The notes beneath the pieces were generated by a model, which was not told the origin of the DNA, did not search any database, and saw only the letters and a program-made list of their open reading frames with translations. From contig OZ024745.1 of the NCBI GenBank assembly GCA_964016885.1, positions 56,358,001 through 56,422,000 on the forward strand: 64,000 nt of DNA, written 5' to 3'. Below are positions 28,708-62,524 of the stretch, in pieces. The translations under genes and the position numbers were made by a program. Position 1 is the first letter of the stretch. Each line of letters opens with the position of its first letter. This stretch comes from Eledone cirrhosa. Its lineage: Eukaryota.

Positions 28708-28894
28708 TAACGAAGGAGGTGTGGTAAGGAACCAGATGTGGTATCGCACCAGAGTACTCAATACTTAGGGTAGTAGAGTGGATAATAGGAAAATGTTTAA
28801 CCCCGACGGTAGAGCTCAAGTAGTTTCGACGGTTATTTCTGGACTAGCCGTCGAAACGGCTTGAGCTCTTTCGTCAGGGTTAAACCTTTACCTA
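28708..28894. mobile_element. About 190-bp fold-back element in (TA)n, copy A
   Basis: Starts TAACGAAG..GTGGTAAGGAACCAG and ends in a hairpin of about 45 bp then CCTA(TA)n. Confidence 0.85.
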
Positions 28895-29511
28895 TATATA
28901 TATATATATATATATATATATATATATATATATATATATATATATATATATATATATATATCGTGGTCTATCCTACGTACATTACTGTCGATTGATTCTA
29001 CTACGTTTTACACTTACTATCCCACGTACTCCGCTGAATTATGGTTTTATTAGTTTGAACTGGTATAATCCTGATTTATATATATATATATATATATATA
29101 TATATATATATATATATATAAATATATATACATATCCTCATTATACACAAAATATATTGTTTAAATATCGTATACAAGACTCAAAAGACAAAAACATATC
29201 AATTGACGATGAAACAAATTCGAATCAAAACGAAATCAATTATATCCATTAATAAATCAAAGATCAACAAGAAACATTATAACCGTAAGTAAGATATAGG
29301 AGGAATTAAGTAGCGTATGTTTAACCTTCTCCATATAAAAGTAATGCTATACTTTTTTCAGAAGTACATTTAATCTCCAAAATGAAAATCCAATTAAAAT
29401 GGAACCTTGAACCAAGGAAGAATAGATTGAAGTGTTGCGTTCTTATTACACAGCAATCCTCTCCAATCAACAAAGGAATCCATGTATGTTCTTTCTACCA
29501 GCTAGAAATAT

Positions 29512-29682
29512 AAGTCAGATATCTCTCAAATGACATCCAAATGTGTTAAACGAAGAAAGGATATATCAGATAATTGTTTCTACTTTTGGCACAAGGCCAG
29601 CAATTATCCCAGTTAAAGTTAAAGTTAACCTCGACGGGATTTGAACTCAGTCCGTAAAGGGACGTAATTGTGCTGCAAAGCA
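29512..29682 (-). mobile_element. tRNA-derived SINE with internal deletion
   Basis: SINE tail and B box present. Confidence 0.75.
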
Positions 29683-29749
29683 CATTAAAGGAGGCGTACG
29701 ACTTTTGAGAAATATAAAACGAAGTAGTTAGTAAAAACTGTAAATTAAA

Positions 29750-30600
29750 TCATACCAGCTAATGCTGTTATATCATAGCGATCAATACCATAACAAAATG
29801 AAGTAGAACAACATGGAATAGGCACTCACAATAAATCTATGAAATACAATAAATAGGAAATAAATAGCGCTACACAGAATACGAAAAACAGAGGCAGAGT
29901 CGAAAGAACCAAACTGGTCTGGATCTAGAGTCAGACCATTCTCCATCAACCGTGACCAAAAGTATATTATGACTGTAAAGAGGAAGTTGATCACGAGCTG
30001 TGATATTGCAGAAGATATCGATGCGAGGAAAACAAACAACGCAACATAAGCCTTGGAATATATCAGAGTAACACTTTTTACACTCTACTCTCTGCCTAGT
30101 CGTTAACAAATGGAAGTAATATATGTCAATAACTTAAAGGACTTGTAGATAAGTTAGAATTTGGTCATATATTCAACAACGATATGTAAATGTGTATATG
30201 ATCAAAGATATTGTAAGAAAAGAGAAATAAACAGTGACATAAATCAGAAGCAGCGAAACAAAACTATTTAGAAGATCTAATTCCTACGATAAACAAACGA
30301 ACTAATGGATAAATTATAAGGCACACTTAGTTAACAAGACGCCGCCTTTCCCAGTTATAAATGACAGTTTTGGCGTAAAAATGTGTAATCTAGACAAAAT
30401 ATCTAGGAACAATGATCCGAATCTGGAAAACACTACATGGAAAATGATATCGAAAAAAAAAAAAATAAACCTTACACACCGGAGGACAGTTTTATACAAA
30501 AAAAGGAAATAATACAAAATAACAGTTGGACTTAGAGTAAAATTGAAGCCGCAAGCTAAGGGAAATTGATTAGTATAAGATGGGAATAAGAAGTAAACAA
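29750..30600 (+). pseudogene. Highly decayed non-LTR RT relic
   Basis: Scattered motif-like remnants only (NQTG..S near 29910, VGLRV near 30525); no open frame. Confidence 0.3.
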
Positions 30601-32098
30601 ACACTGTACATTATATATCCGGCAACAATAAACTACAATTCAGAAGAAAACTACATAGAATGAGAAAACAACAGAGTTTAAAAATTGACAAAAATCAAAA
30701 TTGGGACAACTGTATCTAATTTTTATTCACATTGTTCATAGTGATTAATAACTGAACGTAACATATATATAGATATCATATCCTGAATCGTACATCACAC
30801 AGCGAAGAAATTAAGTAGGTCTCTCTCTTTATTTATTTCTCTATCTCTCTCTCTTTATATATATATATACATTCAATAACACACAGAGTTATAAACATGT
30901 ATACATTTGTGTGTGTGTGTTTTGTGTGTGTTTTGTGTGTGTGTGTGTGTGTGTGTGTGTCCGTGTGTGTTTGTCTTCCGTAACTTAGGAGTTAATCAGA
31001 AAGAGTTCGATAAAATAATGAATAAACTTGAGAATTATGTACCGGGGTCAATATGTTCCACTAAACCTCTTCAATGAATGCCTTGTCACAGCATAGTCTC
31101 TGGCTTATTACTGAAGTCTATAAAAAATTAGAAGATTAAAACAATAGTTTCTTGGGACTGTTTTGAAATATAGTCAAATTCATAATTAAATTAACAATAC
31201 TTATAAAATCCTCGACCTTCACACTATACCACCAATATATATTGCAGCGATATTACGTAGATTACATTTCAGAAAGTTAAAAGTATACGATACAAAAAAC
31301 ACAAATACTGCAGGCCACTAATATACAACGCATTACGCTCGTTTGTAAAGTGAAATATCACAATATAAATGAGGGTCCAGAAAATATTAATAACGAAAAA
31401 GCACTAATCAGTTTAGATATAGAACCAGAGACACGGAAATTAGACGAAACACAGACTGACAAATACTAAAGAATTAATGAACCAGACTGAACTAAATGAA
31501 AAGAAATATTAATTATATCTAACATACACCACTCAATGTTGGGTACAGACTGATTAAATTTTCCACGGATACAGACAGCTGGTGGGTTTCAAAATTAGAA
31601 CATTATTATTATGTATCTATTGTTTGACTTTAAAAAAATATTCTAAATAATAATTGTGGCACATATGAACAGCCTCAAAATGCAACAATCGTTTATTCTG
31701 CTTTGTATTGCTGTTTTATTGCAGTATGTTATAAGTGAGTGCAATATAGTAATTATTTAGAGATACTGACTACATCATTTTCAGTAAGTAGAAGAAATAA
31801 AACAAAAACAACATAATGCAGAAATTGTAGGACGAAAACGGTTTGAAGAGAATGGAAAAACATGAACCAAAATTTAAAAAAATCTGAAAGACGTCTTCTA
31901 TAATATAACTAACAGACAAATGGCAATCAAAACATTCATACATTCTAGAAATCCAAAAGGAAGATATAAAATTGATAGATAGAAAGACTCTGATCGTATC
32001 CATCATCATATATTATTGGTATGAAGAAAAAGAACAGCGACAACAAAAAAAAACAATACAAACAATTGTAACGTAATAATCTGTTGACTCTTTATAAC

Positions 32099-32289
32099 AA
32101 TAATTGTTTCTACATTTGGCACAAGGCCAGCAATTACCCAGTACATTACTGGTACTTTATTTTATCGACCCCGTAAGGATGAAAGGCAAAGTTAACCTCG
32201 ACGGGATTTGAACTCAGACCATAAAGGGACGTAACTATGCTGGAAAACATGGCGTCCGACTCTCTACCGATACTGCCAATCCACCGCCA
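32099..32289 (-). mobile_element. Full-length tRNA-derived SINE
   Basis: Complete head-to-tail match to 19785-19978. Confidence 0.92.
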
Positions 32290-61099: not shown

Positions 61100-61142
61100 A
61101 ATATTTGATAAGATGTATTTGCTCATCGAAACCGGTAATGTT
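61100..61142 (+). ncRNA. Minimal type I hammerhead ribozyme, U3-A8 core variant
   Basis: AATAT-TTGATAA-GATG-tatttgct-CATC-GAAA-CCGG-TA-ATGTT. Confidence 0.72.
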
Positions 61143-61252
61143 TTATAAACGCCCTGTTATTTTTTAAACTCTTACTCTGTCGGAAAAAATAATAGAAATA
61201 TGCTTCCATGGTGTTTACACATTTAATCTCCATTTTCAACTATATATATATA

Positions 61253-61441
61253 TAACGAAGCAAGTGTGGTAAGGAACCAGATGGACCATAATGCACCAGA
61301 GTACTCAATATTTATGGTAGTAGAGTGGGTAATAGGAAAATGTTCAAGATCCCGACGGCAGAGCTCAAGCCGATTCGATGCCTATTTCTGAAATAGCCGT
61401 CGAAATGGCTTGAGCTCCGTCGGGGTCTTGAACGTTTCCTA
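61253..61441. mobile_element. About 190-bp fold-back element in (TA)n, copy C
   Basis: Same family as 28708, 36338 and 62329. Confidence 0.85.
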
Positions 61442-61478
61442 TATATATATATATATATATATATATATATATATATAT

Positions 61479-62256
61479 AACGGCGAGGAATTAGTTTTGC
61501 GAGGTTTTTTTTATATGAAATCGTGTATCGAAACAAATATTGTTATACTTGGGGAGGGTCATATACGAACATGCCAGACAACAACACGACGGTAACATAG
61601 ACAACATTGAAATTAGAATAATATCTAAACATAGAAATGACCCAGCAGATAGGCAAATCAGAGAGGCCAGGGAAATAGAAATTAGAAGGCCAAGGAAAAA
61701 CAGAAAAAATGAATGGAATAACAAAAACACCCAAACAAACAACACTGACCTAAGAGAAGTATAAATAAATAAATAAATAAATACATACACAAGCGCAATA
61801 ACAACAAACACATATAAACACACACTAGTAAACTAAGATAGAATACAATAACCAATACACAGTCACCCAAACACGAACACACATCAAACAAAACACTATA
61901 CACACACGCAAACGCATGCGCAGAGAAGCCCAAAAAATAAACAAATAAATAAATAAACAGACTAAATAAAGATGGCGTAGGCATACAATGCAACGGGAGA
62001 AAACATAATAGCACCACTGACGATGTGGCAGATGTGCAACGAAATAACTTTGTTAGAATATATATATGTATTTGTGTCTATATTGTATCTCTATTTTTGA
62101 CAGTTGGTAACAATGGTAACATTGAGGACCGAATAAATTAAATTAATCGATATAAAGGACACAGAAGCGAAAACCAACCAAACATTGAGTGTCTTCTGTT
62201 ATTAATTCTGGCAATATTATCACACTAATATATGACCCTCCCCAAGTATAACAATA
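61479..62256 (+). mobile_element. 5'-truncated Penelope-like element with short inverted terminal copy
   Basis: 61561-61764 encodes the GIY-YIG C-terminus IYEHARQQH...IEIRIISKH...RQIREAREIEIRRPRKNRKNEW. TATTGTTATACTTGGGGAGGGTCATAT at 61538 is inverted at 62230-62256. Confidence 0.88.
62013..62054 (+). ncRNA. Minimal type I hammerhead motif in PLE 3' UTR
   Basis: ACCA-CTGACGA-T-GTGGCA-gatg-TGCAAC-GAAA-TAAC-TT-TGTT; one mismatch each in stems I and II. Confidence 0.65.
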
Positions 62257-62328
62257 TATATATATATATATATATATATATATATATATATATATATATA
62301 TATATATATATATATATATATATATATA

Positions 62329-62524
62329 TAACGAAGAAAATGTGGTAAGGAACCAGGTGGACCATAACGCACCAAAGTACTCAATACTTAGGGTAGTAGA
62401 GTGGGTAATAGGAACGAGTAGGACCTCGACGACTGAGCTCAAGCCGTTTCAACGGCTAATTCTGGACTCAGAATTAGCTGTCGAAACGGCTTGATCTCAG
62501 CCGTCGAGGCCCTACTCGTTCCTA
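62329..62524. mobile_element. About 195-bp fold-back element in (TA)n, copy D
   Basis: Same family as copies A-C. Confidence 0.88.

What the first reader, a model, noticed from the sequence alone, without database searches (positions are those of the whole stretch)
28708..62524. Four 190-200 bp hairpin elements in (TA)n whose second arm is rebuilt in each copy
Seen: copies at 28708, 36338, 61253 and 62329 share both outer ends (TAACGAAG... and ...CCTA(TA)n). Copy-specific variants occur in both arms (ACCAGTAAG/CTTACTGGT in B, ACGAGTAGG/CCTACTCGT in D, GTTCAAGA/TCTTGAAC in C, GTTTAACCC/GGGTTAAAC in A). Three of the four long arms stop at exactly CTGGACT before reversing, each with a different loop. 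GTC-GAAA-CGGC-TT resembles the 3' half of the HHRs at 44226 and 62013 (GAAA-NNNC-TT). Inference: the template has a defined 5' end or RT stop, followed by snap-back synthesis and TA-microhomology joining.
Basis: partly seen in the sequence, partly recalled or inferred. Interest (0 to 1): 0.7.

Follow-up and report, generated by a model that had tools for sequence, protein, structure and literature searches.

The report
Run-off stubs of a Penelope retrotransposon
These small DNA hairpins are miniature insertions of a Penelope-like jumping gene, present in many thousands of copies, and were likely made when both cut ends of a TA repeat each copied the front end of the element's RNA up to its likely capped start and were then joined head to head.

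Summary
The four hairpins are real (187-207 bp). They are the first 140 and 60 nt of a 3.54-kb Penelope-like retrotransposon whose ORF has Hydra-type motifs. At least 17,014 such hairpins exist genome-wide. Of 100 sampled long arms, 62 end within -8..+8 of CTGGACT (18 exactly) and 9 run on, so the turn point is a sharp cluster, not a fixed base. That point sits on an initiator-like word with a TATA-like box at -29, and ends there often carry an extra C, as copying a cap would give. Pure snap-back fits poorly: short arms occur alone (37 of 84 unpaired arms), often reach further 5' than their partner, and cDNAs jump from +1 to downstream sites. Best model: both target strands prime cDNA at two internal RNA sites, both run off the transcription start, and the two ends are joined. 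No hammerhead core was found, so ribozyme cleavage does not set the end. No RNA data were available, so the start site is inferred. The inverted-repeat-plus-tail anatomy is published, and this scan already noted twin priming (same genome) and a cap footprint (another genome). New here is a ribozyme-less family with evidence that each arm is primed independently.

The parts
28708..28894 (.). Copy A: long arm +140 to +1 (28708-28845, element antisense on +), then short arm +12 to +60; older subfamily, 82% identical to the full element
36338..36477 (-). Copy B long arm: +1 to +140 of the Penelope-like element, 140/140 identical to full element L031:3349-3488
36478..36484 (.). Copy B loop CTAATTC; read from the short-arm side it equals element +7..+13, a likely templated filler
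   Evidence: same filler type at other loci
36485..36544 (+). Copy B short arm: +1 to +60, ends at the upstream initiation site (CCTA|TATA)
36388..36411 (-). Bulged hairpin ACTC-TAC..GTA-TT-GAGT (+67..+90) just 3' of the +60 end site; a twin lies at +145..+166 in the full element, 3' of the +140 site
   Evidence: lead from earlier finding e1-8673755
36496..36511 (+).
   Evidence: fold
61253..61441 (.). Copy C: long arm +140 to +5, short arm +7 to +60; abuts a TA tract that holds an element of another family
62329..62524 (.). Copy D: long arm +140 to +1 (62329-62468), short arm +5 to +60 (62469-62524); joint CTGGACT|CAGAATT recurs at other loci

Best explanation
The hairpins are minimal insertions of a Penelope-like retrotransposon with a Hydra-type protein, and each likely forms when both strands of a cut (TA)n tract prime reverse transcription at two internal sites of the element's RNA (+60 and +140), both DNA copies run off the RNA's predicted capped start (+1), and the two free ends are joined head to head. 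Shown: parent element and ORF, arm coordinates, clustering of inner ends at +1, independent occurrence of each arm, concordance of arms, and jumps from +1 to downstream sites. Inferred: that +1 is a Pol II start, that the extra C copies the cap, that both arms are first-strand cDNAs, and that host end joining with local snap-back fillers closes the tip.
For: Parent: L031 holds the arms as its pLTR, with a 719-aa RT + C-terminal GIY-YIG-type ORF at +232; tandem units are 3,542 bp. Boundary: of 100 tail-anchored long arms, 29 end at +57..+9, 62 at -8..+8, 0 at -9..-70, and 9 run on (curated by eye). In contigs of public run X1, summed depth steps about 16-fold at the same place. Promoter-like context: of 20 Inr-like words in one unit, only +1 has a TATA-like word (TATTTAAA, -29) at the expected distance (motif definitions recalled and loosened by me). 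Extra C: of 79 distinct arms that end at +1 directly on (TA)n, the next base is C in 18, T in 6, G in 6, A in 49, while the genomic -1 base is A 95, G 5, C 0, T 0 of 100. C occurs on short (9 of 37) and long (5 of 46) arms. Two primings: 37 short, 46 long and 1 unclear among 84 distinct unpaired arms; 11 of 16 such loci viewed are short arms with no inverted partner; the short arm starts at least 5 nt 5' of the long-arm end in 16 hairpins, with the reverse in 11 (my count on the same 100); L008 has non-overlapping arms; L211 has a (TA)6 loop between complete arms; several tips carry templated fillers on both sides. +1 is not an intrinsic block: 21 of 26 copies that come from the ORF side pass it, against 9 of 71 that start at +140. 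Free ends: 7 of 30 ORF-junction loci show a jump from +1..+4 to +203..+959. Biochemistry of another PLE shows two internal start sites, cutting and extension of both strands, and a predicted dimer (PMC11167929).
Against: No RNA evidence: the start and cap are inferred from DNA only. Only 18 of 100 long arms end exactly at +1; many stop at +2..+7 or run to -3/-4, where a second Inr-like word lies. The TATA-like word is not kept in all subfamilies (TATTTATT and TATTCAT variants). The 381-versus-8 excess of hairpins with C after both arms is confounded, because most such loops read CAG or CCAG, which snap-back to +5/+4 also gives; the solo 'CA' joints could likewise be 2-nt templated fillers. C versus T among solo joints is only p = 0.011. 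Unpaired arms and asymmetric tips could arise by later deletion of palindromes, and some arms counted as unpaired may have a partner beyond the TA (L211 is one). Samples are the first matches on contig C1, chosen by exact patterns, so they favour young copies.
Confidence: 0.65

Rival explanations
1. One cDNA primed at +140 runs to the RNA 5' end, folds back on itself and is copied to +60, where it joins the target by TA microhomology; later deletions make the tips asymmetric.
For: Arms share variants (0.73 vs 3.10 differences within vs between copies, 63 hairpins). Recurrent joints with 4-6 nt loops and templated fillers look like fold-back priming. Self-priming is the published reading of PLE junction palindromes (PMC3846280 Discussion).
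Against: Solo short arms ending at +1, some with extra C. Zero-loop palindromes (3 of 50). Short arms that reach further 5' than the long arm (16 cases). Non-overlapping arms (L008). A TA loop between complete arms. It does not explain why the second arm ends at +60, which matches a second start site.
Confidence: 0.15
2. Both arms are primed separately, but the 5' end at +1 comes from RNA processing (cleavage or splicing) or a structural stop rather than from transcription initiation.
For: TTTTCATTTAG|TCC resembles a splice acceptor (direct reading). A -37..-29 / +7..+15 inverted repeat and GCTC/GAGC flanks could be relics of a ribozyme fold (my reading). No RNA data exclude it.
Against: No CTGANGA core in the element and only 46 scattered genome hits upstream of the motif. 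No common upstream exon at the joints. cDNAs from the ORF side usually pass +1. The extra C and the Inr-like plus TATA-like context favour a capped start.
Confidence: 0.13
3. A fixed hairpin (MITE or SINE-like master) amplified as a unit, with arms homogenised by gene conversion.
For: High copy number, TA targets, and two joints that each recur in 7 of 50 hairpins.
Against: About 32 joint types in 50, and the recurrent joints occur in both the TAATT and TATTT sequence variants. The outer ends are not inverted repeats of each other (80-nt one-sided tail). The arms are the pLTR of an RT-encoding element.
Confidence: 0.03

Closest known systems
Endonuclease-positive Penelope-like elements with inverted 5'-truncated pLTR and one-sided tail (PMC8557442, passages and section 11; PMC3846280, passages and Discussion)
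   Same: Partial tandems, head-to-head inverted copy, tail on one end only, palindrome at the inverted joint, TATA- and Inr-like words in the pLTR (Pen2a_Av).
   Different: Tail is 80 nt, not 30-40. Most insertions here are only 140 + 60 nt and stop at one point. The published reading is self-priming on an antisense template, whereas these data favour two primings on sense RNA.
Hydra clade PLEs, including Hydra-1_Obim (PMC8557442 section 11; File S1 and S2, part 2 of 59 read)
   Same: RW[K/R], DKT, CxCX5C linker, no CCHH, CxxC and CxH, C-terminal EN, (TA)n targeting.
   Different: No canonical hammerhead; unit 3.54 kb rather than under 3 kb. No tree against the reference proteins was built.
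Poseidon PAc of Anolis in vitro (PMC11167929, parts 1-2 of 4 read)
   Same: Two internal RT start sites bracket the tail near the ORF start; AT-rich target; both strands cut and extended.
   Different: Other clade, carries a hammerhead. The parts read do not derive inverted copies from the two sites or map run-off to a cap.
L1 twin priming and the extra G at full-length 5' joints (PMC11702581, passages)
   Same: Second target end primes RT internally, giving an inverted piece; extra base attributed to the cap; fold-back and templated insertions.
   Different: L1's first priming is at the poly(A) end and the second site is variable. Here both sites are fixed and the two copies overlap.
Template jumping after non-templated addition by R2 RT (PMC8857657, abstract); retroviral minus-strand strong-stop transfer (recalled)
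   Same: cDNA reaches a template 5' end, gains extra bases and resumes on another template position.
   Different: Here it is target-primed and leaves genomic stubs; seamless transfer to the 3' pLTR is not shown.

Membership tests
EN+ Penelope-like elements | Single ORF with RT and C-terminal GIY-YIG endonuclease | tested here: met
   719 aa, YRDD at 348, VIY..YIG at 606; 2,054 homologues of about 700 aa among 7,996 candidates scored. Pfam scan gave no family, so the call rests on motifs.
EN+ Penelope-like elements | Partial-tandem pLTR and inverted 5'-truncated copy | tested here: met
   L031; 3,542-bp tandem units.
EN+ Penelope-like elements | One-sided tail | tested here: met
   Ends at +60 and +140; 80 nt rather than the usual 30-40.
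Hydra clade | RWK, DKT, no conserved GxKF/Y | tested here: met
   RWR at 37, DKT at 117, no GxK[FY]; RWK and DKT in most aligned relatives.
Hydra clade | CxCX5C linker, CCHH absent, CxxC and CxH in EN | tested here: met
   CNCPDRSIC at 572, one Cys between VIY and YIG, CNLC at 670, CKH at 698.
Hydra clade | (TA)n insertion preference | tested here: met
   77 of 100 long-arm outer ends directly on at least 3 TA units by a strict pattern.
Hydra clade | Canonical hammerhead in the pLTR (typical of the clade) | tested here: not met
   No CTGANGA..GAA in the L031 element on either strand; 46 scattered genome hits. The element is therefore called Hydra-type, not filed outright.
Hydra clade | Length generally under 3 kb | tested here: not met
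   Unit 3,542 bp.
Hydra clade | Placement in the RT/EN tree with reference Hydra proteins | not tested
MITE | Terminal inverted repeats and a fixed internal structure copied as a unit | tested here: not met
   One-sided tail, about 32 joint types in 50, RT parent.
Non-LTR retrozyme | Tandem units each with a type I hammerhead (10.64898/2026.07.22.740005, part 1 of 5 read) | tested here: not met
   No hammerhead core; copies are inverted, although one 299-bp x7 tandem derivative exists.
Pol II capped start at +1 | Capped RNA 5' ends at the site | not testable with these tools
   No raw RNA reads were offered; only sequence context and the extra C are available.

The most novel reading that the evidence does not exclude
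Penelope-like elements make a target-primed strong-stop DNA. An RT dimer starts at two hairpin-marked sites near the front of one capped RNA and runs off the cap. The fate of the two free ends then sets the insertion type: joined to each other (hairpin stub), joined to TA (solo arm), or transferred downstream on the RNA (internal duplications and, when transfer uses the repeated pLTR, the partial tandems). One step would explain tail, inverted repeat and pLTR, needs no ribozyme, and resembles retroviral first-strand transfer in a telomerase-related RT.
Probability: 0.3. Interest if true: 0.8.

Novelty: new variant of a known kind. Interest (0 to 1): 0.5.

Why it matters
How Penelope-like elements build their inverted and tandem pseudo-LTRs is stated as an open problem in PMC8557442. 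The published reading of the junction palindromes is self-priming on antisense RNA (PMC3846280). This family gives many thousands of natural products with fixed start sites, a sharp inner boundary and no ribozyme. The twin-priming/run-off model therefore makes exact predictions for CAGE and for an in vitro TPRT assay that already exists for a related element. It also means such hairpins should be annotated as retroelement stubs rather than MITEs or miRNA precursors.

Tried and rejected
Rfam scan at E <= 1: only sub-threshold miRNA-type hairpin hits, no ribozyme family. DNA search of the own genome found nothing because common words are skipped. Pfam: no family for the ORF. RNA test: no RNA holder listed; the three runs laid were contigs of unknown kind and cannot show starts, and no listed piece bridged copy B's own loop. 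One search's gap was too long and caught only one subfamily (502 hits); one search replaced it. Two automatic junction callers over- or under-extended, so ends were curated by eye; 13 of 113 anchored arms were left out of the 100 (8 from loci picked with a +1-containing pattern, 2 from neighbouring DNA, 3 from the window). Both-arm C versus T counts (381 vs 8) were not used as proof of a cap because of the CAG/CCAG confound. Splice-acceptor and hammerhead-cleavage readings of +1 were considered and not supported. The MFE fold did not recover the first bulged hairpin in the L031 variant, only the second; the first rests on the pattern of variation. Literature searches for a prior description returned none that applied: Penelope + twin priming + inverted + tail (1 review, search listing only); Penelope-like + octopus + palindrom; Penelope + template jump + partial tandem + strong-stop (only PMC3846280); listings. 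The library lacks most subscription papers, including the older Penelope structure papers, and the PAc supplements were not read, so the model may be partly in print.
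Full report
Observation. The four elements are in the window as described, with small corrections: A 28708-28894, B 36338-36544, C 61253-61441, D 62329-62524. Each is a long arm, a joint and a shorter inverted arm between (TA)n tracts. A, B and D turn at CTGGACT; C turns four bases earlier. A 32-mer of the arm has 15,824 exact hits in the 3.0-Gb genome and a 23-mer of the unpaired part has 34,216, with 0 for the reversed controls. Hairpins with perfect 9-bp inner stems and loops up to 30 nt number 17,014; in 5,002 both arms reach CTGGACT.

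Parent element. Longer relatives run on past CTGGACT (7,158 arm hits). Locus L031 holds an inverted truncated copy, a partial tandem and a 719-aa ORF. I number the A of sense AGTCCAG as +1. The short arm then ends at +60, the long arm at +140, and the ATG is at +232; tandem units are 3,542 bp. Copy B's long arm is 140/140 identical to +1..+140. The protein has RWR, DKT, YRDD, a CxCX5C linker, a GIY-YIG-type domain without CCHH, CxxC and CxH, which are the protein features listed for the Hydra clade (PMC8557442 section 11). It departs from that clade in lacking a hammerhead and in length. Pfam gave no hit and no tree was built, so I call it Hydra-type. Only 232 exact copies of the +140-to-ORF junction 20-mer exist, so stubs vastly outnumber long copies.

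Turn-around points. I anchored on the tail, which does not depend on the turn, and examined the first 100 matches on contig C1. Ends were curated by eye. Twenty-nine end at +57..+9, 62 at -8..+8 (18 exactly at +1), none at -9..-70, and 9 run on. About 80 of the 100 carry an inverted short arm ending at +60 (my count). Contigs of public run X1 show a roughly 16-fold step in summed depth at the same place and loose (AT)n ends at +60 and +140, and a contig of run X5 from another study folds back on itself, so the pattern is not an assembly artefact. Joints vary: about 32 types among the 50 loci listed (by eye), the two commonest at 7 of 50 each, both found in two sequence variants. Arms agree within a copy (0.73 versus 3.10 differences, 63 hairpins).

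What +1 is. It lies in TTAGTC or TCAGTC, with a pyrimidine at -1 in 100 of 100 read-through copies listed. Of 20 Inr-like words in one unit, only +1 has a TATA-like word at the expected distance (-29); these motif definitions are recalled and the TATA-like word varies between subfamilies. A rotifer Penelope pLTR has a similar pair (PMC3846280, passage), and the Drosophila element starts within its pLTR region (PMC2377424, passages). Where an arm ends at +1 directly on (TA)n, the next base is C in 18 of 79 distinct loci, T in 6, G in 6 and A in 49 (counted by eye; C versus T p = 0.011), although the genomic base there was never C. An extra base of this kind is attributed to the cap in full-length L1 insertions (PMC11702581, passage). 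The signal is confounded in hairpins, where C also starts the templated fillers CAG and CCAG. +1 is not an intrinsic block: of 30 copies that span the +140-to-ORF junction, 4 start at +63..+132, 5 at +2..+15 and 21 pass +1, six of them in two tandem arrays. There is no hammerhead core, so ribozyme cleavage does not set this end. No RNA test was possible.

One cDNA or two. Short arms exist without a partner: 37 short, 46 long and 1 unclear among 84 distinct arms that end at +1 on TA, and 11 of 16 such loci viewed are lone short arms. Both kinds carry the extra C (9 of 37, 5 of 46). In the sample of 100, the short arm starts at least 5 nt 5' of the long-arm end in 16 cases and the reverse holds in 11 (my count). 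L008 has arms that do not overlap at all, L211 has complete arms around a (TA)6 loop, 3 of 50 tips have no loop, and several have templated fillers growing from both ends. A single fold-back cDNA gives none of these without later deletion, which I cannot exclude. Two primings fit the PAc biochemistry: two internal starts that bracket the tail, both strands cut and extended, a predicted dimer (PMC11167929). Each end site reads TAT, matching the target, and is followed 5-7 nt later by a bulged hairpin. In the first hairpin all recurrent variants among 132 arms scored fall in the loop or bulge; this lead came from earlier scan notes. Whether one RNA is copied twice or two RNAs from one source are used is open.

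Free ends jump. Seven of the 30 junction-spanning loci have the form sense start..+N followed by sense +1..+4 onward, with N = 203, 211, 236, 243, 355, 611 or 959, and L046 resumes at +2862. Read as cDNA, synthesis reached +1 and restarted downstream, as R2 RT does after non-templated addition (PMC8857657, abstract). Long A runs after +1 at some tips (L062, L115, L168) also suggest activity at a template end. Seamless transfer to the downstream pLTR would give the partial tandems, but read-through RNA explains these equally well.

Verdict. The anatomy is a known PLE signature (PMC8557442, PMC3846280). Earlier notes of this scan reached twin priming in other families of this genome and a cap footprint in another genome; these are unchecked AI notes and are not counted as support, and none matched this sequence. 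This family adds a ribozyme-less case, lone short arms and jumps from +1. My searches found no paper with this model, within a library that lacks most subscription journals. Interest 0.5; new variant of a known kind.

Noticed in passing
window 24175-26254 (-): Decayed ORF of another Hydra-type element, about 50% identical in protein to the L031 ORF, with frameshifts.
   Followed up: partly
window 44004-44792: Head-to-head insertion of another family with 219-nt arms and a hammerhead-like motif in both orientations (44230-44264 on -, 44534-44568 on +).
   Followed up: partly
window 61481-62253, 62589-62949 and 6191-6529: Further fold-back elements of other families with hammerhead-like cores; copies C and D share one TA-rich cluster with two of them.
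   Followed up: no
L210 (G000:C2:356029300-356032900): Tandem array of a 299-bp unit (+1..+262 joined to -58..-20), 7 full units, starting at +1 and ending at +140 on TA: a retrozyme-like derivative without a hammerhead.
   Followed up: partly
L209 (G000:C1:91485000-91492000): About 50 tandem copies of a 55-bp piece of the ORF (+1755..+1812) at the 5' end of a multi-unit array.
   Followed up: no
L171; G000:C2:166911593; G000:C7:7118469: Joints between the hammerhead of the window-44534 family and this family's +1 arm, suggesting jumps or joins between families.
   Followed up: partly
L030 and L141/L142: Short and long arms in the same orientation separated by (TA)10 (L030), and a long arm of one subfamily joined to an inverted duplicate of a neighbouring insertion (L141).
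   Followed up: no
L031:3452-3493: A 13-codon upstream ORF starts inside the tail (+104), out of frame with the main ORF (read).
   Followed up: no
window 1737-1932 and 19535-19931: Inverted pairs of another, SINE-like repeat (label recalled).
   Followed up: no
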